A DNA stretch of 64,000 nt, from contig NW_018407191.1 in assembly GCF_002113885.1 (NCBI RefSeq), positions 458,744 through 522,743 of the forward strand, given 5' to 3'. A program made the translations under genes and the position numbers. Positions 46,961 to 64,000 of this stretch are shown here, one piece after another (the stretch's first letter is position 1; every line of letters begins with the position of its first letter). A model generated the notes under the pieces. It did no database searches, was not told the origin of the DNA, and saw only the letters and a list, made by a program, of their open reading frames with translations. Source of the stretch: Mizuhopecten yessoensis. Taxonomy: Eukaryota.

Positions 46961-49900
46961 CAAATTATTTTGATTATTTTGTATCAAATAAGGTAAAAAT
47001 CTGGTAAGGATCAAGAATTTTTATTTTATTCTCTTTATTTATTTTAACATAATATTTATGAACATTGGCGTTGGAAAATTTAAAAGAGAAACTGTTTTAT
47101 TCAGTTCCTATTATAGCCCTTGATAAGTTTTCGTCCTTGGCGAAGCCCTAGCGAAATGGAGAGTGTTTATACTTACAATGGTAATTTGAAAATTAAACCA
47201 AAGACTGAAAAGATGTTTTCACTGATTTAAAGAAAATTAATTTCAAAGTCTATAACATGGCAAGGAATGCGCCATAGATATTAGCTTATTTATCACATCA
47301 TGTTTGATTTTGATCGAGTTAACTAACAAAATCGGTTTATATACTTGTATTTACATCGGGTTGCGGGCAACTTATTAGATATCAACATATTTGGTGGGAA
47401 TCTAGGAAATCCTATTGTTTTTAACAGATTTGTCAGCATTGATAGATGTCTGCAATAAAATACATGTGGGTTGGAATTAAATTAAGATAAAAATCACAAA
47501 CAAATATTGTTTTACAAAGACTTTCGGTATGTTTAAGCAGAAATTAAATAATTCTTCATAACCAGCCTTTTACATATTTTGGTAATCTAATGAGCTGCAG
47601 AAATAATCTGAAAAGTTTATTGTGGTTTAACTAAATGAAGCATGCCATTAGGGACACTTTCTGAGTCTGACACTTTTATATTATCATATCACGATATAAA
47701 ATGTCTTGTACTGGTTGTATTTCTTTAAAGTTCACAATTTCTTTGATACTGGGTTTAACAACCAGAACGAAATAATTATCTTTATAGTGAAGGTTTGCTT
47801 CACATCAGAGGAAATGTATTTACTTTAGAAGACAGTATTCGCCTTAGCGTCTCTATTGACATAATAAATGACACACATTTGATGAAAATAATGTCTGCAT
47901 AGTCTAGTGATTTTATTCAACCTTGTATTTCCCATTATTATTATCTAAAGTATGCCTTTCATGCTACGTGGTTTAAGTATGATATCAATCTTCATTGCCT
48001 TTGAAAATGTTTTTGTTTAAGTAGAAGTAGATACTCATGTAGATATGGCTGATGGATCAAACAGTGCGTCAGCGGATCTTCATGCAAATAAAAGTTGGAT
48101 AATGATATGATGTGCATTGTAAGCATTTTGATGTCAGTTTTCAATCTGTACGTACATAAAATAACATTAGTGTAACCGACACGACAAATTGATGACGTCG
48201 TTCAATTGTGGATACACAAAAATATGTTACTATAGTGTTAGCGTGATACATCATGTCTGGTTTTGAATGCATCATCCGTCCACGTGATTATATCTAAGGC
48301 AATTTGATTAGTTATCAGCAAGGCCAAGACAAACGGTCATGGAAAATACGAATATCTATGGTTACTGATTTGCCAGTGTCTCTTGTGTTCTCATGGAATT
48401 CTTGCAAGGTGAAAGCAATTTTTGTCAGTAGGAAAACAACCACAGCCCAAAGAAGTGATCTTCTTTCCGATTATTGAAAAGGAAAGAAGAAAATCAGCAA
48501 AACAGCAAATAAATAAAATAAATAAAATAAAAATCGAAACAAACATGACAACACATATTAACGATGAATGTAACACACACAGGTGACTGTGCCTTTCAAA
48601 ATTGATACTATACACAGTATGACATATAAACTAATTACACTGCACCATACAGCTGTTTCTATAGCTCATCGGACAATTAGAACAAAACACTTCATCTTCA
48701 ATATCAATTCGTCTGGCGGAATATTTTTTCTTAAACTACAACAATCAACCTCTTTGGATGCAAATAAACACCCTGTCGAATTGTGTGCGACGAGGTATGT
48801 CGCCGAGACCGTACAAGATGCAGCTATATTGACGGTTAACAAAACAGGGTTGATTTATTTGACATTTAATAGCATTTGCATAACACACTTTTTCGTATAG
48901 ACACGCAAGGATGCAAATATATAGGTTGTTATTTTCAGTCATCAAACAACTGCGTCATTATGTGTTATATTTAGTTTAAAAAAAGAAATATATCATAGTA
49001 AAGATACTGTTCAGTTTGTCTGTCTGACGGTTATTTCTGCGATTCTCATGAATCTGCTTATATGTAACAATGGTAGATACAGATCGTGTAATTTTATCAG
49101 CTGACTTTGACATAAAAGGTATTTTTGTTTCAGCAATAATACTAGCCAGGTTAAGTTCAAAAACGTGTCCCACTGATCAATAATTTATGTGTCAGTAGTC
49201 GCGTTACCTATCATAGCGAAGTGAGCTTCATAGGTAACACGTTCAGGTAAAAGAAACCCCAGTCAAAACCAACCATGAAATCTCATAGATCTAGCAAGTC
49301 AATTCACTTGCGTAACTTGGGAAATTAAGTCTTATTATATAATTAGCTAAACGACAAGCAATATTATAATCTAGTATTATTCAAAATATTGAAATTCTAA
49401 ACCAAATCTGACTGTATCACAACTTAAAAATGAATATCTAGTGATAATATTAAGCACAAAAATATTTGTAAATTTTGACACAGTTTTAGAAAAACTAATT
49501 TTGAGTATTTGCGTCATTAAACTAATCATGCTATGAGCATGTATATTCCATTAAATTATATATTATACCAGTGGCTTTCAATACAAAATTGAACCTCTGT
49601 GTGCGATGCGATATTAACTTGAAATATAAATGCTTTCTCTAAAAAAATAATCAGGTGGTTACACTATTTAATTCAATAAATTAAAATGTATACAGTATAA
49701 TTGTTTTACATGTAAAGCGAGTATCAATTAGATATGCGCAATATGTTGCCATACAAAAATCAAAGTACTTAAAAGAACTTTGGAAATAACACGAACTATA
49801 AAGATGATTTTTTTTTTATTTACATAAGCATATGTAAATGACTTAATTAATATCTATATAACAGTCATTCTGGATTGATCGTATTCGAACTCCGACCGTT

Positions 49901-50779
49901 AAATCTTTGCAACATTTCTTTGAAGTTTCGTTCAAAGTTTGGATACGATCAATCCGGAATTGCTGTATCAACAGCTGGTCATAATATTATGTTAAAAAGG
50001 GCGATAATAACAGATATGCCACATGTGTTTCAACTATTAGCTTACAGTAGTCCTATCACAGACAGTAATTCTCCTACACAAAGGAAAACACTTTTTTCAC
50101 TGCCAGCTTCAACATATGTCATTTGATACCGAGATGAAATGATCGCCGTTTGGACGCTTTTAATTTAGTGCTAACGGATTTGCGAAAAGCATCTTTCGTT
50201 ATTTCAATTGATCTAAAATGTCTGCAAAACATTCGAGTAAATCTTTACCCGACAATATTAGAAGTTGTTCTAGGAGAGATCGATACGAACCAGAATAATA
50301 TGTCAAAAGACTGCACTTAGTTTTGCCAAAACAACGCACTTATGTTGATGTATAAAGAATGCTGTTTATTTAGCTTCAGATAAAACGCATATTACTTTTT
50401 TGTTATTGATTGCTTGTTAAGTCACCTGAGACAATGTTTTAGTTTTCCTTGATTGGTAACGAGTATGGGTCTCCCTGGGTATACAAAGCGCATTACCCGT
50501 CAAACCGGTTATCATTTGTTACTAAATGTATGTGCGCAAGTTGACACTACTATACTATAGATATATATAAATACATTATAACACTTTCACGATTTTTTAC
50601 TAACATTTTGTATCAGGTCAGATGAATAAAATTAAAATAGAACACGTCAAAGATAGATCTCAAAACCAGAAAAAAAAAGTTTGATTTTTTTTTTTTTAAA
50701 TCCCAATTGAAGGCTTTTTAACTTGTACTGTCGCCCTAAACTTCATCTTTTACAACAATTGTTAAGCAACCTTGCTGGC

Positions 50780-50935
50780 CTGATTTATTGGTGTTAAAAT
50801 TTTGGAGATAACTGGAGAACCCCGAAACCCCTAAGTAGTCGGGCAGGTGACCCCATACATTTTCACGTCCGAATGGAGAATCAAGCCCTGCCGCCTTCTT
50901 TGTGAAAAGCGAGTGGGTTATCGAATGTTCACCCG
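50780..50935 (-). mobile_element. Decayed V-domain SINE
   Basis: GTCGGGCAGGTGACCCCATAC..TTTTCACGTCCG is shared with 37685-37921. Confidence 0.7.
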
Positions 50936-52371
50936 ACAATAATTTTAGAGGGGGAAAATGTCAATGTCATTTTCTACAAAAACAATCAATCTTAATCACA
51001 TATTGTGATGCATTTACAGAAGTTATTCGAAATTTCATTTTTTCAACCTATAAAAAAATATTTGTGTTTTCATTTTTACTTAATCAGGAACACATGACCA
51101 GGGATTAAAGTGACGCTGTCTTTTTGCTGTGAAAACATTTACATTAAATGTATGAAGTTGTTTTAGTGACGCTGAACACCAGCTGGAACACATCAGTATT
51201 GCAATGGGGAAAACTGTACACCTCTTTCAGCTAATCTGTTTTGGAATCTTAATTCAGAAAAAAAGATACATGTATACTGCTATTAGTATAGGAATTGCAA
51301 CATCTTCTGGAGGATTTCTTCCCTTTTTATCAGCCAGTGCTTGAAATTAAATAAATTTCAGACTCGTCCTCATCTCCGTTTATCAATGCATGGCCTATGA
51401 AAAACATGTAACTTTAAGCGACCCTCTCCCCCGACTTTTATGCCAACACATAGTTTGTGGACAAGTTTGTTAGATCACTATTTTCTTAATGACTACGGAA
51501 TAATGCTCATGGGCAACGTGTTATCTGTTCGTGAATGTGTTTTAAGTTCACACCTTTTTGCAGTGACATAAAGAAAGAAACAGAAAAAATAGTGTTTTTT
51601 AAGAACGAAAACAGAAGGAATCGAGAAAAGCATATACTTTAAAAATGAAAAAGAAAACCGTCCGAATTACCTTTTTGGTGAAGTGTCTGCTATATCTTTG
51701 TTTTGACAAAATGTCCCATGTATAGACGTAGAAAATAAAAAAAAACACATGAAGGTCACCTTGTCGTGCCTGTTTTTACAGAAAATTATATCTGTTTTGT
51801 TAATATAATCAATATCAGTTGTCACGCATTACGAATAAACGTGAATATCACACAAAAACATTAAGGTATTGATGTCTTTTTAACTTGATCTCAATGTCCC
51901 ATCTCCATCTGACTTTATCTGTTGCGAGGACGTTAAACCCCAAAAAACAAAAATATTTCTGAATGGCTTGTTAAAGAAAACTATATCTGTAATATCATAT
52001 GAGTGCAAATTTTCTTCTGATCATTGATGCATGGCTGCGTAGATAAATGCCCTCTTCTTTTGGTTCAGAAGAAAACCCAGGTTAAAGTCATTATCCGACT
52101 GAAACCAGAGTGGTCCTTTGCTTATAACACCCGCCATGGTTCGTAGCCATATCCGATTTGTTAAATTATCATGTAAGATAGCATGATAAACACATGGTCA
52201 CCACGTTTTGAAGCATTCTTTTTAACACATGCCTGTTTCCGAAAAAAACGCCTCTACAATTCATCTTGTAATAGGTAGTGTTCTTTCCCTTCTTTATTTC
52301 TATGAATTATATTTATACACGTTTGTTTCCCCTGGTCGCTGCACTTTTCCGTGGTTGGGGGTTGAGTATCT

Positions 52372-52581
52372 CAACCTATCAATGTCATGGTTAGAACATG
52401 GGAAACCCCAACCTATCAATGTCATGGCTAGAACATGGGAAACCCCAACCTATCAATATCATGTCTAAAACATGGGAAACCTCAACCTATCATTACAACA
52501 TGGGAAACCTCAACCTATCAATGTCATGATTAGAACATGGGAAACCTCAACCTATCAATGTCATGGTTAGAACATATGAAA
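52372..52581 (+). repeat. 37-bp minisatellite, about 6 copies (one shortened), upstream of the ODC-like gene
   Basis: Unit CAACCTATCAATGTCATGGTTAGAACATGGGAAACC(C/T). Confidence 0.92.
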
Positions 52582-52644
52582 CGCATTCGCAGTATTAGTG
52601 TAACAGGCAATGCCTGTCTCTTGCTAGACACGTTTAAATGGAGT

Positions 52645-52785
52645 CATTTGATTGGTCGAAGACTTTCTGGATAATCGAAACTGTATTAATACCAAATTGC
52701 CACAGACTGCAACGCACTTACAAGGAATTCATCGTCTGACTGAATTGGTGGAGAAATCCATCGGACGAGAATAACACTGACTAAG
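52645..52785 (+). promoter_or_regulatory. Candidate promoter and first non-coding exon of the ODC-like gene
   Basis: Reverse CCAAT (ATTGG 52651-52655), TATA-like TATTAAT at ~52685, and consensus donor AAG|GTGAGT at 52785/52786. The TSS cannot be determined. Confidence 0.5.
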
Positions 52786-52990
52786 GTGAGTTGTTCTTAA
52801 AAGTTATTTTTATTGGAATGAAAATATCCACATTATGCAGCAGGAAGAACCAACGTATTTCCAAGTTTGTGTTACATTTTACCAATATTACTTTAGACAA
52901 CTAGTTTCTAGAATAATAACGTTATCTTAGTATCACGAATAGCATTATAGTACAAAATATTAATAATCTTAGGATTTTTTGTTATTTCAG

Positions 52991-53032
52991 CTATGCTATA
53001 TTTCCAAAATATTAGCTAGAACAGTTAACAAG
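52991..53032 (+). other. Candidate 42-nt 5' UTR exon carrying a uORF (MLYFQNIS*, 52993-53019)
   Basis: TTTTTTGTTATTTCAG| acceptor and AAG|GTAATT donor. Confidence 0.5.
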
Positions 53033-53815
53033 GTAATTGGGGAAAATGTAAACAACAGTTCATATATGTTTGATATGTGATTCTGATTAAATGAGGCATG
53101 TAGTTTTGTAAAGTCAAATAAAAGTCAAACGAGGGGAAATCCATTATTACACAACGTGTTGTTATATTGTCACACAAAACGAGAGGGTCTGTATGTTATG
53201 ATGTTTAAGTGATAGGTATATCCCTTAGGACTTGCATACTTCATTTTGAAAAATGAATAACGTTGCTCATATAATCCACCAATATCTACATAAGACTTTT
53301 GAATTATTTAGTGATGTGAAAAGATTTGGTGTATTTATCGGACAGCAAGTTGTTAGCATTTGCATGTATTGTGCTCATCTCCTTATCTGGTGATATATTT
53401 TAACATTAAAAACAAACAATGATACCAGTTTAGCATACCAGGTAGTAAAATTAAACAGTGCTATATATAGAGGTAGGTTATAAGCTGACACGCCGGTGTT
53501 ATGAATCTTCAGTATTGTTTGAATAATGCTGGCAGTCTTCAAGTTCGGCTTTACTGCATACGAGTTTTGTTTTTTTACAGGTTATTGCTTCAGCCAACCT
53601 ATTTCCATCCAGACACTTTGATAGTTTTGTTATTTTTTCCGCTCCTTTAATATTCCGATGACGACATTCAAGTCTACACTATTATGTACCACCATCCGTA
53701 CAGCATTTATCTATCTATTCACAAATAATTGCCACATTAAATTGAATACAGAAATAATTTATTAATTTTAAAGAAGACATTGTCTTTATTGGTTGTACAC
53801 TTTTTTTTAAAGAAA

Positions 53816-53902
53816 ATGACGGATAACGATATGCTGATTGTTGATGCAAGGCTTTCCCATTCAAACTACATCAAACGAGAGATTGCTTACCAGGCAGAAC
53901 TG
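53816..53902 (+). CDS. ODC-like coding exon 1
   Basis: AAA-ATG; MTDNDMLIVDARLSHSNYIKREIAYQAEL; donor CTG|GTAAGA. Confidence 0.75.
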
Positions 53903-56900
53903 GTAAGATTATCTAATTTTGAATGTTGTTGGCGATTCAACTTTCTAACAGACAAAACTTTTTGTCGAGAGCTTTCATGCCATCATAACGTGTAAAAAAT
54001 ATCAACATCCCTTTCTTCTCATTTCTTCTATTTTGATGTTTCCATCAATTAAGGCAATTTTTGCTGCACCATTTTGCAATATAAGCGTTTCACAAACACG
54101 TTTATGCTGTAATTTTTTCGTGGTTATTTGACATATATTTACCCATTCATTTATGATTTTAGTTTGGTGCTTTTACCTTATTACCATAACTAGACAGAAA
54201 ATAGAAATGTTGACCAAATCCTAACGGCTGCTTCATAGATATCATTGTACCTTAGATTCGTTCGTGTACTATTCGTATAAAATACATGATTTATTTAATA
54301 CAGGGTATAGACGATCCTCTGGTTATCGTTGATATTGACGAGGTGGTGGAGAGGTACAGAAAATGGTACCATTTGCTTCCAAGGGTAGTGCTATTCTATG
54401 TTAACGTTATATTTATCAATACCTGTTTCTTTATATTAAACATGTAATGCGAGTTTCGGCTTGTTTCTATTTTGAACATTTTTTTGACACATTTCCAACA
54501 AATTATTCATGATAGAAAACAGTTTTTCATATTACGCAAAATTTAATATTCCTACCAACGAGGCGAGCAATGGACATGTGGACTTTGCAGAAAGTCACAG
54601 CTGATTCGATATAATTTCCATGACAAGGAAATGTTATATGCGATTCTTTCAAAAACCCGTTTGTATTTCTATCCCAATAGCATTGAAGTGCAACAATGAT
54701 GAAAAAATAGTTGACGTCCTTGTAAGACTAGGGAGCAGTTTTGACTGTGCGAGCAAGGTATGCGCTTCTTCCAATCATCCTGTACAAAATACGAGTTCGA
54801 ATCGATCGTATTTGTATAAGTTCTTACAACCTAATCCAAATAATCCAGTCTTTTCTCAATCCCTTTTTTATGCAGATATGCTTAACATTGTTTCGACAGT
54901 TCCCTATACAAATTATCCCAGTCAGGCGATACTTAGGAACTAAGTGTTGGCAGGCATGAGAAGAATTAAGATAACACTCAGAAATTGGCGGTGTGATTCA
55001 TTCACAATTTCTAAAAAAATAAATATAAGTAAACTATCTTCATAACGCCACCGTCATTATTATTTCATTACTCTGAAGGAAAACAAATCAAAAGATAAGC
55101 GATAAGCAGTGATTCCATTTAAACTAAAATGTCATTTTTGAAAGGAAAAAGAAGCTTCGTTTAAATCGAGGTGATATATATATATATATATATATATATG
55201 TGAAATGATCATATCTTTTGTTCTTCCAAGTAGGCTGAAATAAAGCAGGTGTTAGACCTAGGAGTCGATCCGTCACGCATCATATACGCCAACCCATGTA
55301 AACAAAACGCACATCTTCCTTTCGCCAAGAAACACAATGTAGACCTGATGACCTTTGACAGCGAGGAGGAATTGATCAAGATCAAAATGTTGTATAGATC
55401 AGCAAGGTTAGTTTCATAAATGACATTGGTGAGGTACCGTCAGTGTGATTCTTTAAGGGAACTTAATTTTCGCAGTAAGGACAAGTCTGTTAATTCGACA
55501 ACAAAGCAGTCATTTGCAGTAATGAAATATCATCTATGATAATGAATGTATCAAGACTTCCATTTAAACACTTCATATGATTTCAAGGCATTCACGAAAC
55601 TAAAAATGCGCAAAATGAATAGTTGGGTGCGACATGTTAAATATCTATATATGGTATTAATCTTGAAGCCTGGCGTTATATTACAGATTACTGTTGAGAT
55701 TTAGGCCAAATCACATGTGTACCGTCATGTATGACCTAGGGAAGAAGTTCGGTTGTGTCTTTGTAGAGGCCCTGGATTTGTTTATATCGGCAAAGAACAA
55801 AGGGTTGAACGTCATTGGTGTGAGGTGAGAGATATAAATGCAAATTTGACAAGTTAAATCAAATATATCTTCAGACGTTATCATATAGAATAACTTGTTA
55901 AATAATTTACCTAAATTAGTCATTTAAATATGCCTGTCGGCAGTAGAACGCGAAGATTTAGAACGCTCCATATCTCAACATTATTTCGGAGAAATGTGAG
56001 ACAGTCAAAATTGTGACTAGTTCGTGTGTCGTTTTAGTTTCCATGTTGGAAGTGACTGTCTCAGTTCCGACGCATTTGCTTTTGCAATCAAAGAAGCACG
56101 GAGAATATTTGACATGGGACAACAGGTCGGATTTGATATGAACGTCCTTGACATTGGAGGTGGATACCGAGGCCGAGATGTTGATCATCCGACCATAGAA
56201 GAGGTATAGTCCTTGAACTCGTTGCAGAAATATATATTTGCTCATGGTAATATAATCGGAAAACTAATACTGGAAGCCAGGGTTTTTATTACTTAGTTGA
56301 CATTGTGTGTTTATTTTCATGTGTTTTATAGACAAGTCTTACTCAATAGATATTATTTTAATGTTTGGTTTCAAGAATGAACCTTTCCACAGTAATCTTT
56401 ACCTTAACTGTGCAAACCGTATAAAAGATTCCCAATAAAAAATAATAAGAACTTAACGATACAACTTTCTTGCACATGTAAACCCGCCTGATAACATGTT
56501 CATACTTGTCACACAGACACTGTATTTCCATTCATTTATCATCTTTACGTAAGAATGCAGACATCATAAACCAGTGCCTTGATGAGTATTTCCCTGCAGC
56601 AGAAGGAGTAAAAATAATCGCCGAACCAGGACGTTACCTTGTAGAAACTGCTGTCAGCGCTGCAGCCAATATCATAGGCCGGAGGTTTGTCTATGACCAG
56701 GGTATGTGTAGAGCATACAAATGTAAATGTGTTATACGTTTCGCAGATTAACACCGACTGTAAATCGAGTTGGAAATGTACGATTAAATGCGTTAGGACT
56801 AATGCGTTGTTAATGAACAGTTATATAAACGGAGATAATTAGTATTGGTAGTTATGGCAGAGAGCATAAAATCACCCCGAACAGCCTTTAAATGTCGTCT

Positions 56901-59746
56901 TGTGCTTACATCTTCCTCGAATGTATCTCTGGTAATTTAATATTCTGATTAAATTTGCTTTTGATTTCAGACAAAAAACGTATTGAACATGTTTTGTACA
57001 ACATAAATGATGGGATATATGGATCTGTGAGTAGAGTGAACGATGGCACAAAGGTACTCGTGATATCACCGGTTCTAAACAAGGTTTGTATACCGATCAT
57101 AGTAATCGTATATCATCTAACCCTAACCCTAACCCTAACACAGAATGTATTGCATAATATGAAAAGGCAAAGCCTTAAAAGAGCGTACCTTTTGTTGATC
57201 TCTGATATTTACTGATTCAGAATACAACTTTCAGAATAAGATAAGATAAACTTTATTTAAAGTCGGCTAGTCGAGGAATAACAATAAAACACAAGATCTA
57301 ATGAGATTAAGACCGAAATAACAATAGGGAGACCGGGGCAAGTTCGGCCTTTTTTGTTTGTTTATTAAATTCCGTTCTAGGAAGTATGGCAGCACGTCCG
57401 TTTTTGAACATTATTTAACGATAGGATGGCCGAACGAGCCCCGCCATGGGGTAAGTTCGGACAGGCATTCGGGTAAGTTCGGCCCCCATTGGAATCAGTT
57501 TAATTATGACGTCATAAACCATGCAACGTCGGACTTTGTATATGTTTTAAAACTACATGGGCCGACCTCGCAACGGTTTTATTAGTCGAACTTGTTCGGG
57601 CCCAAATTGATATTTCAGTAAATTCTTATCGTACAGCAGTATGGTAGCGTTTTTTCCGTCGTTGAATGCCCAGCCAACTAAACTGCTAAGATCCTTAAAC
57701 TTGTAAATATTAGCTCAAAAACAAAAAATATCAGGGATGGCAGAACTTGCCCCGGTCTCCCGTATGTAGATATTTTATAATATTGGTGATTGGAAAAAAA
57801 TATTCACAATATAATTTTGGCATCAATGACGCCATTTTCTTCCAGTCAAAGCTAAATTAGATATTTGTTCTTGTGCTTGGGCTTGGGTATGGGTCGGGCG
57901 GCGCAGTGGATAGCGCGCTCGTCTTCACCAAGATGGCCTGATTCCATCCCGGCCACCTGCCCGACCACGCGGGTTTTCTCCGATTACTCAAGCTTCCACC
58001 CATAATAAGAATAAAACCCTCTGCGTGCTTCCGTCAGGGCACAAAAAAGAATGATTGAGATAAGCTGGGGGGAAAACTGTTTGGTAATTGCTATAGAAAA
58101 AAGTGCATTTTTCATATTTGACGATTAGTCTAAGTAAATGTATAGAGATGTAAGTTAAAAATTTAAATTAAGAAAAGAAAACATTGTAATACTTTGATGT
58201 AACTGAAATTGTCTTGATATGGATATGTAGTCTCAATTACTGTTCCATCATGAAACACCGGATTGAATTTCAAATTTTGTAACTGTCACCGAGGTTTGAC
58301 AGGTAATGATGCCAAATAAAATTACAGTTTCTATCTGTAACTAGTTATTAATCGGCACGCGTTGTGAAAAAGTAATACGTTGCTGAAAAAGGGCGTTGCA
58401 TAAATGCATTTTACATTGCTTCTTTTATGAGTGGTGATGCATAAATAATGTAAAGACTATATCCGGTCTTTCAAAAATGTCAATAATTTCGTTCATATTC
58501 TCAACAAATGAAAATCAAAAGCTGAAAAAATTCGGCACCCGAGAGCTACGCTCTTATTAGATTATAAAAGTAATATTTTAGCAAAAGACTGTTACACTCC
58601 ATTCGTCATTACAAAAGGTTCTGGTATGCCCTGATATTACACTATTCAACCAAATTAAAAATGATTTAAAAATGATAACGTTTGATCATTTTCCATAAAG
58701 CATAGCAAAACATTATTATTTCATTTACAGGCTTAACTTAACATCAAATCTAATATTCATAATAATGATAATAAACATCATCATCGTCGTCGTTGTCGTT
58801 TCATGACGTATATTTCAACTAGATTGATAAACATCAAGTATCAATACATCAATATCTAGTGCATTATGACAGGTGCCAAATGTGATGTAGGAAAGTCTCA
58901 TCCTTCTGAAATATTTAATTTTTCAATCAGATGTTTTCTTGTACATTATATTTGTTAGATACGTTTTTCGGTTTTTGTTTTCTTCTTAGTTCCCAGTCTC
59001 TTCTAATAATTTTCATGCCCGATCTTCTGCTTGTTAAGCAAAACATGTTACTCAGTGTTTGACTTTAATAATCACATTAGTATTGCCTCGGATACGGTGT
59101 GCAGAATGTGGCAGTGTTGGTACTAGTGCTGAAATGTTATAAATACAAGAAGTACATAATGAAAAAAATATACGAAAAAGAAGTATATATTGACTTTGAT
59201 TTAAGAAGTTTATCAGAAAAAAACATCTATGACTTCGCAGAGAGATTCAGTTACGCTTTCCACTTGAAGAATTTGAAATGTTCGCTATTTTGTAAAGAAA
59301 GCGGAAAAGTAGACTGAGATAGTCACGGAAATAATATTACTACGGAAGTGACGATGTATCAAGTACTTCCTTTTTATCTCTAGGCGATGGCAGAAAAGCA
59401 CAACAGTACTCTGTGGGGGCCAACATGTGATTCCACGGATTGCCTAGCAACAGACATCCCTTTACCATTAATGGAGGTGGGAGAATGGGTACATATCAGT
59501 TATGTAGGAGCCTACTCGTTATGCCGGGCCACCAACTTTAACAGCATGCCACGACCAAAGCTGTATTACTTCTGTTCACGTCACACTTGGTATGTATTTC
59601 GTTTGCCCCAACTCAAATAGTTATTTTATATATTCGACAAATTTATAATTCAACTTCTTTAGCAGGAAAGGATTTCATTTTTCTATTGTTTATATGATAT
59701 CTTCATTCACTGCAGGGCATCCTTACAAAACCTGATGGATCATTGA
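53816..59746 (+). CDS. ODC1: Ornithine decarboxylase-like protein (PLP fold-type III decarboxylase), 411 aa, 10 coding exons: 53816-53902, 54304-54400, 54681-54757, 55234-55406, 55687-55824, 56038-56203, 56554-56701, 56971-57083, 59384-59589, 59716-59746
   Basis: Motifs FYALKCN (PLP Lys), FDCASK, IIYANPCK, MTFDSEEEL, KFG, SFHVGS, LDIGGG, AEPGRY, NDGIYGS, WGPTCD, GAY and FN. All intron phases agree. All introns are GT-AG except intron 2. Divergent paralogue, so orthology to ODC1 is not established. Confidence 0.93.
54304..54400 (+). CDS. ODC-like coding exon 2
   Basis: GIDDPLVIVDIDEVVERYRKWYHLLPRVVLFY+G; the donor is non-canonical (G|TTAAC). Confidence 0.85.
54681..54757 (+). CDS. ODC-like coding exon 3 (PLP-binding Lys)
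   Basis: (A)LKCNNDEKIVDVLVRLGSSFDCASK; donor AAG|GTATGC. Confidence 0.92.
55174..55199. repeat. (TA)n microsatellite in ODC-like intron 3
   Basis: About 13 AT units. Confidence 0.9.
55234..55406 (+). CDS. ODC-like coding exon 4
   Basis: AEIKQVLDLGVDPSRIIYANPCKQNAHLPFAKKHNVDLMTFDSEEELIKIKMLYRSA; donor AG|GTTAGT. Confidence 0.93.
55687..55824 (+). CDS. ODC-like coding exon 5
   Basis: (R)LLLRFRPNHMCTVMYDLGKKFGCVFVEALDLFISAKNKGLNVIGV(S); donor AG|GTGAGA. Confidence 0.92.
56038..56203 (+). CDS. ODC-like coding exon 6
   Basis: FHVGSDCLSS...LDIGGGYRGRDVDHPTIEE; donor GAG|GTATAG. Confidence 0.93.
56554..56701 (+). CDS. ODC-like coding exon 7
   Basis: NADIINQCLDEYFPAAEGVKIIAEPGRYLVETAVSAAANIIGRRFVYDQ; AAG acceptor; donor G|GTATGT. 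Confidence 0.88.
56971..57083 (+). CDS. ODC-like coding exon 8 (specificity element)
   Basis: (D)KKRIEHVLYNINDGIYGSVSRVNDGTKVLVISPVLNK; donor AAG|GTTTGT. Confidence 0.9.
57327..57761. mobile_element. Tc1/mariner-pogo-type MITE in ODC-like intron 8
   Basis: TIRs GGGAGACCGGGGCAAGTTC (57327-57345) / GAACTTGCCCCGGTCTCCC (57743-57761); TA on both sides (one extra G on the right); internal AAGTTCGG subrepeats. Confidence 0.85.
57891..58110 (+). mobile_element. Decayed V-domain SINE in ODC-like intron 8
   Basis: GGCGCAGTGGATAGCGCGCTCGTCTTCACCAAG head and CACCTGCCCGACCACGCGGGTTTTCTCCG core. Confidence 0.7.
59384..59589 (+). CDS. ODC-like coding exon 9 (catalytic Cys-Asp)
   Basis: AMAEKHNSTLWGPTCDSTDC...GAYSLCRATNFNSMPRPKLYYFCSRHT; donor TG|GTATGT. 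Confidence 0.93.
59716..59746 (+). CDS. ODC-like terminal coding exon
   Basis: TGCAG| acceptor in phase 2; (W)ASLQNLMDH*; AATAAA at 59824 and 59867. Confidence 0.75.
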
Positions 59747-59823
59747 ACTTGAGCTAGAACAGCCGTCATCAGATTAGAACAGTAAAACTTGTAAGTGTTC
59801 TTACTTTCTCAGACGATTAATGT

Positions 59824-59829
59824 AATAAA
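59824..59829 (+). terminator. Candidate polyadenylation signal of the ODC-like gene
   Basis: First AATAAA after the stop at 59744-59746. Confidence 0.45.
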
Positions 59830-60583
59830 GTGTACCATCAAATTTAAAAAATATTTTGTCGTTCTCAATAAAATGAATGACTATTTATAAGAATTTTTTT
59901 TTCACATGTTGTCATGCAATTACCGATGTAATAAAATTTCAAATATTATTATTGAAATCGAAAAGAGTATGCAAGGGTTCGAATTACAGTACCTAGCCTA
60001 CCATTAACCAATCTTACAGTGGTTACACAAGTTCAGCATCAGAACGAGTGCTCAATTTATGGGGCGCAGAGCATCTAAAACACTTCACCGGGTAGGTAAC
60101 TCTACGCTAGAAAAACAGCGTTTGGTTGTTTCGTCTTTTGTGGAGTAAAACAAAAACTCTATGTGAAACTCTTATTATGACTGATTCAGTGATACCATAG
60201 AAAGAAATTCTACAAATCTGTTGAATTTTAAAACGATAATGTTCATTATTTCTAACTATGGGTATCAATGATGAAGAAATGTAGGTGGTTGTGAGATCAT
60301 TGTGCATTTCATAAATTAGTTGCGTTAGCGCCTTTTTGTTCTTTCAGCAATATCCTTAGTCCCAGTCTCAAAATATAAAATAAATAATTAGTTGTATGAT
60401 GCAAATAGCGATATGAAATAATGCGGAAAGCTTCAAGTTAACTTAAAATTTCTTTTTATTTTATTTAGGTACATATGACCAGGGCTTACAATGCTGCCGT
60501 TTTGGTTTTGCGGAATGCTTTTCTTTAGGCTACATTGGTTTCAGCTTAATTTTTTAAGGGGTTCATATTTCTCCTTCTGTTTT

Positions 60584-60619
<36 letters not shown>

Positions 60620-62917
60620 NTTTTCTGTTCGTATCAACTTATGGTCTCATTTTGTCCTCCTGTGTTCGGTTTTTGCGATACATTACGATTCCATTTTTTT
60701 CATATAGTTTTGTAATGATGTGATCATTGTTGCCATACATTTGTAAATGTCAAGATATAGAACTGACTGTCTTATTGTCAAGGGGAAAATACCGCCATTA
60801 TGGAATCATTTAAGTAATATATGCGAACGCTAAATTAAAGTGTAGAGCAAGCATCTTACTGTAATCTTTATTAAAAATTGTATATTCAACTTATAAAAAT
60901 TCAAAATTATCATTACGAATTTTGTCAAGTACATGTAGCTGCTCAGTCATTCTAGAAAAAAATGTCAATGTGATCTCAGTAAATCATGTCTCAGATATAG
61001 CCTGTCTTTTGTACATTTAGATGCATGTGTAAGTGGTGTTTATTCTGAAATGCTCTCTGGCGTGTTTAAATATTTATCGACGACAAATAAAATGAAACAC
61101 ACATTTTTTGGCAACATTTCGACATTTTATTTTGACATGCTGGTGACATATTAAAGACAGGTAACAACATCACAATACACAGATATGTTAATAAAGATAT
61201 AGTCTTCACAACTGTTACTAGCCATCAATTGATTCACCAGGACTAGCCTAAAAATAATCATAACTTATTTCATATTCTGCCATTAAATTTTAGGAGGGAT
61301 TGCATAATTTAGACCGTTTTTATGTGAGCAAAACATTCATATAAAAGCAATACTGCATATCTTCGAACAGGTGTGTCATTCGCAGGTAAATTTGACCTAC
61401 GTGTGCGCATAGCTGTTTCATATCATATTTATTCGAAAAACACGATTCATGAGAATCTTTTGCGAACAGGAAAATAACATATTTACCTACAAGCATGGTC
61501 CAGTTAATAGCTACTAAATGCAAAGTCGCACTTTTTTGAAAGGGAAATAATTCTATTATACTTTCCTCAATTATACAACCTGTCAAATAAAAAAGCCATA
61601 TATGAAATATTTATCATCGGAATTGAAAATCATAATCAAATAATATTAAGTTCACACTCAATAATGTATTTTATATGATTAATTTTTTCATAATAATTCA
61701 CCATGTTTTAAATATTTAAATACCCGTGAAAAGAAATTAATATAAAACAAATCCAAAATTATACAGAATACAAAAGTGTGAAAATCATTTTACATCAATC
61801 TTATGGAACTATCTATGTAAAAGTTGCGTTAAAACAACAACTTGCCTGCTAAGTATTACTGAAATAATGTCACGAACTCTACAACCAGAACAAATATAAC
61901 AGGAATGTTATTCACTGGCGACAGTATGACGTCTATGTAACAGTTAAGTATACACTGCTCGGAGATGTTAACAACATTTTCGCAAGAAAACAATGAAGCA
62001 TAATAGGAGAGCATTTACACATTTTGATTGACAATCTCAACATGACAAGGAACAGTAATGGTAAGCATCTATATATTTATACATTTTCCACAAAGGATTA
62101 TAAACAATATAAGAATAATAAAATATATCAAAATGCATAGATGAAATGATTCCTTCAAAGCACTGATTTACTATATGTAGACAAACAACACGAGGAGAAT
62201 ATTGCATGTACAAACCAACACATAGTGAGCCTATCGATCAATACTTGTTCTCTCTCTGAATTTACATATTCTTTAATTTATTACAAAAAACAATCTATAA
62301 TTAGTAAAAGCTCGTTAATCAAGAAATTCTCCTCAGATAATGAATGTAAGCCATGATCCACAAAAGCCGTGTTTCGTTTATCTATAAATTAACTACAGAT
62401 TTTTTCGCTTGGAACCGGAGTGTCCAGATTAACCAAGTCCATCAGTATTCTATAAACAAAAGTACCAGCTATATACATGTGGTACAATGTTTTACGTATA
62501 TTTTCTTCACAAGCTGTTGTTGGTTTTCCTGATTGTATCTAATGTGATCGTTACGAGGTACGAGACAATTTCCACAATAATATTCAAATAATAACCTATT
62601 TTAAATATGGAAACTTAATATTTTATAAGTCAAGAAAACCTTTTGAATTCCATAATGTATCTATCGATATGTACCTACATATATTTTATGTTCATATCTT
62701 ATCATAAATTGTAACAGATTTTTTAACATACAATCAACAATATGTATAATAATTACTAAACAGACAACATCTTTAAATCACACATTCTTGGTTTTTTTCT
62801 TCATAAAAAGTATTTGCATTCGGAATTTCGTTAAGGATTTCTCATCCGGTAAAACCTTGATTTCATCTGGAACAGCCAACGACTTATTTTATTACAAAAC
62901 CCCGATGGCTAGCATGG

Positions 62918-62944
62918 CTATATATATATATATATATATATATA
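62918..62944. repeat. (TA)n microsatellite
   Basis: About 13 TA units. Confidence 0.9.
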
Positions 62945-63523
62945 GTGAAATAGTGCAGAGTGCATGACTACTTCTGGCTTTTTTAGTGCGTATTTCAATA
63001 ATATTGCGCAAATTTCAATTTTTGGAAGGATTAGGGATAACAATTAGCATACAAATGTTATTATACAACATTCTGATATGAAATTAAAGAATTACTTGCA
63101 TAATTCCTGCAAACCAAAAGAGGCACATGCATTATTCCTGCAAACCAAAAGAGGCGACTAAGTGTGGACCCCCTGCTGTGACTGTTAGATCCATCGCAGT
63201 ATTGAGAGGCGACTAATGAGATATTCCGTAGCAAATTGGAGATTTTTTCATATTTACCGGGCCAGATTTCCACAGGCACATGTTCCACGTTTTTGATATC
63301 TCTCGTTGACTCACTTTATATGACAGTGTATCTTGCGCAAGAATAGGTCCTCTACATCAGCGTTCCTTGTCTGCGATGCTCTCAGCTTAATTGCTGCCTT
63401 CGGCTGTCTTTAGCCGAGGGGACTTTTTTTATATATATAATAGCTATATTTTCAATTATAGTATATCATTTCTATCTTCTTTTAATATGATGTATATGTA
63501 CATGTAACTGTTCTGTTTCACTG

Positions 63524-63562
63524 TGTCTTGAAAAAGCAGCGGTACGCTCCGAAAATTTGACA
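63524..63562 (+). ncRNA. Minimal type I hammerhead-like motif of the Penelope pLTR kind
   Basis: TGTC-TTGAAAA-AGCAGCG GTA CGCTCC-GAAA-ATTT-GACA: stem I TGTC/GACA, U3/A8 core variant, stem II AGCG/CGCT, palindromic AAATTT. Confidence 0.5.
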
Positions 63563-63856
63563 ACCTAAACTTGTCCACACTGTTGGAATTACTTCTTTGC
63601 CCCTACGGACATACCTCCATTAGGATCCAGTGTTATATGGGATTTTTACCGTCTATATTACTTCTTTGACCCCAAACTGTTCATATATGTATATATATTA
63701 ATTATAATCAGAACAAAGATACATGAAGTGAACAAATTTCATTCCCAACAGAAACAGAACTAACTGTTGATCTGTAAACAAATCACTTTTACAACACAGT
63801 CCCTTTGTTCCATAATAACGCATTCACAGACCTGTGAAGATTGACCTAAATAAAGT

Positions 63857-64000
63857 GATAGAAAGATGAGCCAGGCTTCATCCAAAGAGATAGAAAGGGG
63901 GAGCCAGGCTTTGTCCAAAGAGTTGGAAAGGGGAGCCAGGCTTTACCAAAAGAGTTGGAAAGGGGCGCCATGCTTTGTCCAAAGAATTTGAAAGGGGAGC
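63857..64000 (+). repeat. About 32-bp minisatellite running off the window end
   Basis: Variants of GAGCCAGGCTTTGTCCAAAGAGTTGGAAAGGG, at least 4 copies. Confidence 0.9.

What the first reader, a model, noticed from the sequence alone, without database searches (positions are those of the whole stretch)
56971..59589. ODC-like enzyme with an intact catalytic core but a rebuilt substrate-specificity element
Seen: equivalents of human ODC K69 (ALKCN), R154, K169, H197, G235-237, E274/R277, C360/D361 and Y389 are present, so this does not look like a degenerate antizyme inhibitor. But the element that reads YGSFNCILYDH in ODC (D332 binds the distal amine of ornithine) reads YGSVSRVNDGT here. HVGSG becomes HVGSD, GGGFPG becomes GGGYRG, and GAYTVAAASTFNGF becomes GAYSLCRATNFNSM. 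Established: this element sets substrate choice across fold-III decarboxylases (ornithine, lysine, arginine, diaminopimelate, carboxynorspermidine). Inference: a neofunctionalised paralogue acting on another substrate. The new Arg residues near the pocket could suit an acidic or otherwise non-ornithine substrate.
Basis: partly seen in the sequence, partly recalled or inferred. Interest (0 to 1): 0.7.

Follow-up and report, generated by a model that had tools for sequence, protein, structure and literature searches.

The report
Scallop decarboxylase family with rebuilt pockets
This gene belongs to a scallop-specific, multi-copy family of ornithine-decarboxylase look-alikes that keep the catalytic residues but have changed the substrate-binding ones, so they likely act on some other amino acid; the copy sequenced here has a mutated splice site and likely makes no working enzyme.

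Summary
The motifs are real, but the gene is larger than stated: ten coding exons at 53816-59746, 411 codons. It keeps 19 of 20 residues critical for ornithine decarboxylase (ODC); D332 aligns to Gly. It is not a lone oddity. It belongs to a scallop-only clade (four species, 100/100 support) with a tandem array elsewhere in this genome, under purifying selection (dN/dS about 0.25 on this lineage). The genome also has an ordinary ODC. Across 14 clade proteins, 18 key residues are invariant, D332 is absent in all 14, D361 is kept in only 3, and variation concentrates in the specificity helix and catalytic-Cys loop. That favours a changed, probably non-diamine substrate. The nearest alternative splices truncate the protein, delete K69 or insert residues beside it. 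One public contig of this locus has GT, so this is likely a segregating null allele. RNA seen matched paralogues only. An acidic substrate is weakly supported for this copy, which keeps D361. Remodelled ODC paralogues are known in planarians, mouse and Xenopus; I found no paper on the scallop expansion.

The parts
53816..53902 (+). Coding exon 1 (ATG; residues 1-29)
   Evidence: matches the N-terminus of P0001 and P0151
54304..54400 (+). Coding exon 2 (ends LPRVVLFY, phase 1)
54401..54402 (+). Intron-2 donor reading TT instead of GT; likely a segregating null allele
   Evidence: GT in 9 of 9 paralogues with exon 2 located. An X15 contig matches the window over 54340-54712 with no difference. 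An X1 contig has G here, at depth 4
54681..54757 (+). Coding exon 3, with K69 and D88 equivalents (K64, D83)
   Evidence: skipped in the public model P0151
55234..55406 (+). Coding exon 4 (E94, antizyme-binding region, D134 equivalents)
55687..55824 (+). Coding exon 5 (R154, K169 equivalents; C164 replaced by Tyr)
56038..56203 (+). Coding exon 6 (HVGSD; GGGYRG)
56554..56701 (+). Coding exon 7 (EPGR: E274/R277 equivalents)
56971..57083 (+). Coding exon 8, with the rebuilt specificity helix (R317 on C328, D320 on Y331, G321 on D332)
57117..59306 (.). About 2.2 kb of repeat-rich sequence in intron 8, absent from the sister copy on C3147
   Evidence: Gap in the blastn alignment; very high depth in public contigs
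59384..59589 (+). Coding exon 9 (C360/D361, D364, G387, Y389, F397 equivalents)
59716..59746 (+). Coding exon 10 with stop codon
   Evidence: identical to the C3147 copy
49726..64000 (.). Segmental duplication shared with G000:C3147 (about 85% identity); runs about 3.7 kb past the window end

Best explanation
This is a dispersed duplicate in a scallop-specific family of ODC paralogues that likely work as PLP-dependent homodimeric decarboxylases of an amino acid other than ornithine, and the haplotype in this window carries a mutated splice donor that likely makes it a null allele. Shown: gene structure, family, conserved cofactor and catalytic residues, loss of D332, purifying selection, the TT donor. 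Inferred mechanism: K64 holds PLP, the substrate forms the external aldimine, CO2 leaves, and C348 of the partner subunit protonates the product, as in ODC. The two acids that grip the distal amine of ornithine are mostly gone (D332 in 0 of 14, D361 in 3 of 14). In most members the pocket gains bulky or apolar groups (C328W, C164Y, D332 to V/I/M/G). The likely family substrate is therefore a neutral, non-diamine L-amino acid giving a monoamine, and different copies may be tuned to different side chains. This copy and its sister form an Arg317 variant, probably suited to a more polar side chain. The substrate itself is not identified.
For: 18 of 20 key residues are invariant in 14 of 14 clade proteins. 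All 8 ODC-conserved columns in the specificity helix and Cys loop are lost in at least half the clade, against 49 of 171 elsewhere (p=7e-5). 7 of 8 carry four or more residue types, against 14 of 171 (p=8e-7). pN is 0.39 there and 0.10 elsewhere, with similar pS (0.47, 0.39). These two elements set specificity in this fold, and the Asp after the catalytic Cys binds the side-chain amine (PMC7857480). The AlphaFold model of the sister protein is ODC-like (pLDDT 93, TM 0.93). Its specificity helix is 3 residues long, against 7 in the canonical scallop ODC folded the same way. dN/dS is 0.18-0.47 in all 36 pairs; the window lineage has 20 synonymous and 18 non-synonymous changes, p=3e-5 against neutrality. 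A canonical ODC is present on C5561. Precedent: mouse Gm853 is a leucine decarboxylase (PMC6313458). Null allele.
Against: No activity was measured and no docking was possible. Pocket pN/pS is about 0.84, not above 1, so relaxed constraint on an unused pocket fits as well as diversifying selection. This copy keeps D361, and D320 could stand in for D332 if the helix shifts by one residue (HMMER register; pLDDT only 76-78 there). Entamoeba ODC has substitutions at both acids and is still weakly active on ornithine. Gm853 changed substrate without losing the key residues, so residue lists predict substrate poorly. The intact allele rests on one 179-base contig of depth 4. No transcript assignable to this copy was seen in the 6 RNA or RNA-guessed runs laid.
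Confidence: 0.55

Rival explanations
1. The family members are still ornithine or lysine decarboxylases with altered kinetics, using the D/E at position 320 in place of D332.
For: An acid lies at the Y331-aligned position in 10 of 14 proteins. HMMER aligns D320 with D332 of mammalian ODC. This copy keeps D361. Human D332E keeps most activity (PMC4139326). Entamoeba ODC is active with D332E and D361N. Xenopus ODC2 is a lysine/ornithine decarboxylase (PMC6738921).
Against: D361 is C, A or S in 11 of 14. Mollusc-level alignments are gap-free and put G/V/I/M on D332. The helix is predicted to be shortened. A canonical ODC already exists.
Confidence: 0.2
2. The family are non-catalytic regulators (antizyme inhibitors or ODC-binding partners) whose substrate pocket drifts because it is unused.
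For: This is the published default for ODC homologues with key-residue changes (Ivanov et al. 2010, seen only as cited in PMC5574924 and PMC3543441). Pocket pN/pS is near neutral. An antizyme gene is present and no separate AZIN-like gene appeared among 32 PF02784 matches.
Against: K69, C360, H197, S200, E274, R277, Y389 and F397 are invariant in 14 of 14. Human AZIN changes R277 and Y389 and Xenopus AZIN1 lacks K69 and C360. A many-copy array with differing pockets is not expected for a titrating protein (inference).
Confidence: 0.15
3. This copy is a fixed young pseudogene, and its private residues (D197, R381, D349, S116P, G142R) are early decay.
For: TT donor in the assembly and in an independent data set. 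The public model here is a 217-aa fragment lacking K69 and the C-terminal domain. No RNA assigned to it. 5 of 10 array copies modelled are damaged.
Against: No stop or frameshift in 411 codons. Lineage dN/dS about 0.25, like its expressed sister at 0.28. An X1 contig that is 176 of 179 identical to this locus, where the nearest paralogue is only 85% identical, has the GT donor. D197, R317 and R381 recur in Ylistrum P0011.
Confidence: 0.2
4. One reading: an enzyme for an acidic substrate, bound by the new Arg residues.
For: An Arg on the specificity helix binds the distal carboxylate in DAPDC and SbnH (PMC7857480). R317 together with loss of D361 (to Ala) occurs in P0001 and, apparently separately, in Ylistrum P0011. 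R235 is in 13 of 14.
Against: This copy pairs R317 with D349, D320 and D197. 11 of 14 have Trp at 317. The positions of R235 and R381 relative to the substrate were not tested, since no coordinates were available.
Confidence: 0.1

Closest known systems
Eukaryotic ornithine decarboxylase (PF02784 + PF00278; human/mouse 7ODC, 9B8M; scallop P0023)
   Same: Fold (TM 0.93), 19 of 20 key residues, shared exon boundaries for exons 4 and 6, about 44-46% identity to scallop ODC.
   Different: D332 lost; specificity helix resequenced and predicted shorter; C164Y, G201D/N, P239R, G399S; C-terminal tail about 40 residues shorter; multi-copy; D361 lost in most relatives.
Mouse Gm853/ODCrp leucine decarboxylase
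   Same: ODC paralogue with an intact catalytic set that does not use ornithine, does not bind antizyme, and makes a monoamine.
   Different: Gm853 is reported to keep all key residues including D332 and D361. It is a mammalian gene; its sequence was not compared here.
Lineage-specific ODC-like paralogues of invertebrates (planarian ODC2-6; Ivanov et al. 2010 set)
   Same: Repeated lineage-specific duplication next to one canonical ODC, with key-residue substitutions, including at the D332-type positions.
   Different: Planarian ODC5 and ODC6 lose C360 or K69. The scallop clade keeps both in 14 of 14, with change confined to the substrate-binding elements.
Antizyme inhibitors AZIN1/AZIN2
   Same: ODC fold; D332 and Y331 changed.
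   Different: AZINs change R277 and Y389 (human) or K69 and C360 (Xenopus); none is changed here. Search scores are higher for ODC than for AZIN1 (327 against 250 bits).
Bacterial alanine-racemase-fold decarboxylases with shifted specificity (FigC, SbnH, DAPDC, PBCV-1 ADC)
   Same: The same two elements, specificity helix and catalytic-Cys loop, are remodelled.
   Different: Distant in sequence. The scallop genes share intron positions with animal ODC, so they arose by duplication, not transfer (inference).

Membership tests
Fold-type III PLP decarboxylase, ODC-like | PLP-binding barrel plus C-terminal sheet domain | tested here: met
   Pfam hits on exons; model of the 92%-identical sister, TM 0.93 to human ODC
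Fold-type III PLP decarboxylase, ODC-like | Schiff-base Lys, PLP-binding residues and catalytic Cys | tested here: met
   Present in the exon model and in 14 of 14 clade proteins
Ornithine decarboxylase (EC 4.1.1.17) | D332 in an N-C-x-L-Y-D specificity helix | tested here: not met
   G321 aligns to D332; 0 of 14 keep Asp; one aligner shifts D320 onto it
Ornithine decarboxylase (EC 4.1.1.17) | D361 after the catalytic Cys | tested here: met
   D349 in this copy; only 3 of 14 in the clade
Ornithine decarboxylase (EC 4.1.1.17) | Converts ornithine to putrescine | not testable with these tools
   Needs an assay
Antizyme inhibitor | Loss of PLP-binding or catalytic residues (R277, Y389, K69, C360) | tested here: not met
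   All retained in 14 of 14
Antizyme inhibitor | Binds antizyme more tightly than ODC does | not tested
   No complex job run; ODC also binds antizyme, so a predicted complex would not separate the cases
Leucine decarboxylase (Gm853 type) | Orthology to Gm853 and leucine activity | not tested
   The Gm853 sequence was not in hand; the clade's close relatives are all scallop proteins
Pseudogene | Disabling lesion in the gene | tested here: met
   TT donor at intron 2 in this haplotype
Pseudogene | Lesion fixed and coding sequence evolving neutrally | tested here: not met
   dN/dS about 0.25; GT seen in one contig of this locus

The most novel reading that the evidence does not exclude
Scallops carry an undescribed, expanded battery of amine-forming enzymes built from ODC, each copy tuned to a different non-diamine amino acid. 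Mussels, gastropods, Solemya and freshwater mussels evolved the same switch independently through parallel changes (C164 to an aromatic residue, D361 to Cys/Ala, T390S, A393L). This would be a recurrent, unrecognised route to non-polyamine biogenic amines in molluscs, and a natural test of whether the 'inactive' ODC homologues of animals are enzymes.
Probability: 0.3. Interest if true: 0.7.

Novelty: new variant of a known kind. Interest (0 to 1): 0.4.

Why it matters
Many animal genomes hold ODC homologues with altered key residues. They are usually assumed to be inactive regulators, and few have been assayed. The scallop clade is a clean test set: catalytic residues invariant, substrate-binding elements hypervariable, at least six apparently intact genes in one genome, and a canonical ODC as control. 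One substrate screen would show whether such paralogues make new amines. The natural null allele gives a genetic handle. For annotation, the public 217-aa model at this locus probably reflects the broken donor.

Tried and rejected
No RNA holder was listed for the stretch; this is no evidence either way. Reads and contigs laid on exons carried paralogue bases: X7 5 of 5 for C3147 and 6 of 6 for g4; X24 2 of 2 for C3147; X19 was not assignable; none matched the window's base at those sites. X23 gave no reads on the stretch. Alternative splicing around the TT donor: of 21 donor-acceptor pairs, 15 stop by residue 73. The six in-frame ones delete K69 (five) or insert 8 residues before it (one). Assembly error as the cause of TT: rejected, because an X15 contig agrees with the window. 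Simple decay of the coding sequence: rejected. Horizontal or retrotransposed origin: rejected, given ten exons and boundaries shared with ODC. Residue-level superposition and docking were not possible, since the tools return no coordinates. No complex prediction was run, because a homodimer or antizyme complex would pass by likeness to solved structures. Four primary papers (Lee 2007, Deng 2010, Ivanov 2010; Lambertos 2018 was not requested) were not read; I rely on papers citing them. Searches of earlier scan findings returned nothing. A search for shorter homologues added only scallop fragments above 65% identity among named hits. A C-terminal-only tree weakly joined the mussel paralogue to the clade (78); the N-terminal tree placed it with mussel ODC (98), so I read the likeness as convergence, not proven.
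Full report
1. The observation. The region is a spliced animal gene. Exon boundaries were set by coordinates and give ten coding exons from 53816 to 59746, 1236 bases, 411 codons, with no internal stop. Five of eight frames tested hit the two ODC Pfam domains. The model differs at 33 of 411 positions from P0001, a named Mizuhopecten yessoensis ODC-like protein encoded on G000:C3147. Of the 20 residues listed as critical for ODC (PMC5518511, passages), it keeps 19; D332 is the exception.

2. Register of the specificity element. The helix in ODC is N-C-I-L-Y-D, and D332 anchors the side-chain amine (PMC11792860, section 11). Mollusc ODCs and the scallop paralogues align through this region without gaps: R317 on C328, D320 on Y331, G321 on D332 (MAFFT; hhalign). 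HMMER against mouse and human ODC, which are one residue longer, puts D320 on D332. AlphaFold models made from the same 73 sequences give a 7-residue helix in canonical scallop ODC and a 3-residue helix in P0001, which has the same RVNDGT, at pLDDT 76-78. The following strand falls at the same offset in both, which favours the gap-free register. The fold is otherwise ODC (TM 0.93). The window protein itself was not folded.

3. Eight of nine introns are GT-AG. Intron 2 starts TT at 54401, where 9 of 9 paralogues with exon 2 located have GT. Of 21 alternative donor-acceptor pairs, 15 stop by residue 73, five delete K69 and one inserts eight residues just before it. The public protein for this locus, P0151 (XP_021359308.1, 217 aa, on a contig of the same length), leaves exon 2 early, skips exons 3 and 5 and ends in exon 8 out of frame (mapping read by eye). 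A contig of run X15 matches the window without a difference across 54340-54712, so TT is not an assembly slip. A 179-base contig of run X1 differs at three places, one of them G at 54401; the nearest paralogue is only 85% identical over that stretch. This points to a segregating null allele. The caveats are depth 4, a single contig, and the possibility of an unassembled near-identical copy; a DNA search found no such copy among 10 matches in G000. That a G-to-T change at donor +1 usually abolishes splicing is general knowledge, not tested here.

4. The family. Exon 9 has 18 matches in G000, 14 of them on contig C3435. In C3435:140-480 kb I modelled ten multi-exon copies. Five look intact (g1, g2, g3, g6, g8) and five are damaged by a lost start, a broken exon, a stop or frameshifts. 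The window copy and C3147 are a dispersed pair in a segmental duplication of about 18 kb at about 85% identity, dS 0.16. Canonical ODC (P0023) lies on C5561 and shares at least two exon boundaries. Of the best 120 listed of 3922 hits, 15 are 61-100% identical to P0001, all from four scallops; the rest are at most 51%. A profile search of 1.84 billion representatives found no closer outside relative among the best 150. In a 43-row tree the 20 clade rows have 100/100 support on a long stem; fused or multi-repeat proteins P0014, P0050 and P0101 were left out. The sister group of the clade is unresolved.

5. Selection. Nei-Gojobori dN/dS is 0.18-0.47 in all 36 pairs of nine genes. Polarised with seven outgroups, the window lineage has 20 synonymous and 18 non-synonymous changes (omega about 0.25, p=3e-5 against neutral), C3147 has 14 and 14, and 5 are ambiguous. 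The coding sequence was under purifying selection until recently.

6. What changed. In 14 clade proteins, 18 of 20 key residues are invariant, D332 is kept in 0 and D361 in 3. Compared with 18 canonical mollusc ODCs, 8 of 8 conserved columns in the specificity helix and Cys loop are lost in at least half the clade (49 of 171 elsewhere), and 7 of 8 are hypervariable (14 of 171 elsewhere). The region was partly suggested by the finding itself, so the p-values are optimistic. In three disjoint gene pairs pN is 0.39 there against 0.10 elsewhere, with pS 0.47 and 0.39. Near-fixed clade changes include C164Y, P239R and G201N/D/E; C328 is Trp in 11 and Arg in 3. Both remodelled elements are the established specificity determinants (PMC7857480, passages and section 8). 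The window copy is atypical: R317, D349 (D361 kept or regained), D197, R381. Ylistrum P0011 also has R317, D197 and R381, with Ala at 349 like P0001, and does not group with them.

7. Mechanism. Most likely (0.55) the family are PLP-dependent dimeric decarboxylases of a non-diamine amino acid, and this haplotype is a null allele. The chemistry is inferred from conserved residues and the substrate class from the loss of the two acids; neither was tested. Rivals: altered ornithine/lysine decarboxylase (0.2), supported by Entamoeba ODC, which is weakly active with both acids changed (PMC3543441, passages), and by human D332E (PMC4139326, passages); non-catalytic regulator (0.15); acidic substrate (0.1), more plausible for P0001 and P0011 than for this copy. 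Separately, there is a 0.2 chance that this copy is a fixed pseudogene.

8. Expression. Spliced contigs in X7 carry C3147 and g4 bases, and X24 reads across intron 6 carry C3147 bases, so the family is transcribed. Nothing was assigned to the window copy. Only 18-24% of each raw run was read and tissues are unknown, so this is weak.

9. Known and new. Lineage-specific ODC paralogues with key-residue changes are known: six in planarians, and a survey of over 200 homologues cited there (PMC5574924, passages); mouse Gm853 leucine decarboxylase (PMC6313458, passages; PMC7671201, parts 1-3 of 4); Xenopus ODC2 (PMC6738921, passages). By a crude motif test, 81 of 143 further representatives lack the canonical helix or CD motif, fragments included, so the kind is common. 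Searches for the scallop case found nothing relevant in the listings; most subscription journals are not covered and no supplements were read. Other molluscs have their own remodelled copies, each grouping with its lineage's ODC in the N-terminal tree (SH-aLRT 97-99). They show parallel changes: C164 to Y/F in 4 of 6, D361 to A/C in 3 of 6, T390S in 4 of 6, A393L in 4 of 6.

10. Verdict. This is a new variant of a known kind, interest 0.4. The family is the interesting object; this copy is a probably disabled allele of an atypical member.

Noticed in passing
G000:C5349:114948-116249 (L054): A second, distant fold-III gene in pieces on a 666-kb scaffold (PF02784 hits). Its motifs look like diaminopimelate decarboxylase (label recalled, not tested), which would be unusual in an animal.
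   Followed up: no
G000:C2088, about 66.9-68.9 kb, minus strand (L053, L056): Antizyme gene (PF02100) with a TCC TGA site of the type used for +1 frameshifting (motif recalled).
   Followed up: partly
P0085, P0062, P0090, P0037, P0021, P0100: Mussel, Gigantopelta, Solemya, freshwater mussel and abalone ODC paralogues with remodelled pockets and changes parallel to the scallop clade; five of the six group with their own lineage's ODC, the abalone one is unresolved.
   Followed up: partly
G000:C3435:159045-462333: Tandem array of at least ten ODC-like copies in both orientations plus isolated exon 7-9 fragments; half are damaged.
   Followed up: partly
window 3-1270, minus strand: Retrotransposon-like remnant with a gag-polyprotein aspartyl protease match.
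   Followed up: partly
window 4684-5244, plus strand: 186-aa open frame resembling the end of a LINE reverse transcriptase (recalled; no Pfam hit).
   Followed up: partly
window 52370-52582 and 63734-64000: Minisatellite arrays (about 37-base and 32-base units by blastn offsets) flanking the gene, shared with the C3147 copy.
   Followed up: no
P0151 / XP_021359308.1: The public gene model of this locus is a 217-aa fragment that avoids the TT donor and lacks K69, R154, K169 and the C-terminal domain.
   Followed up: yes
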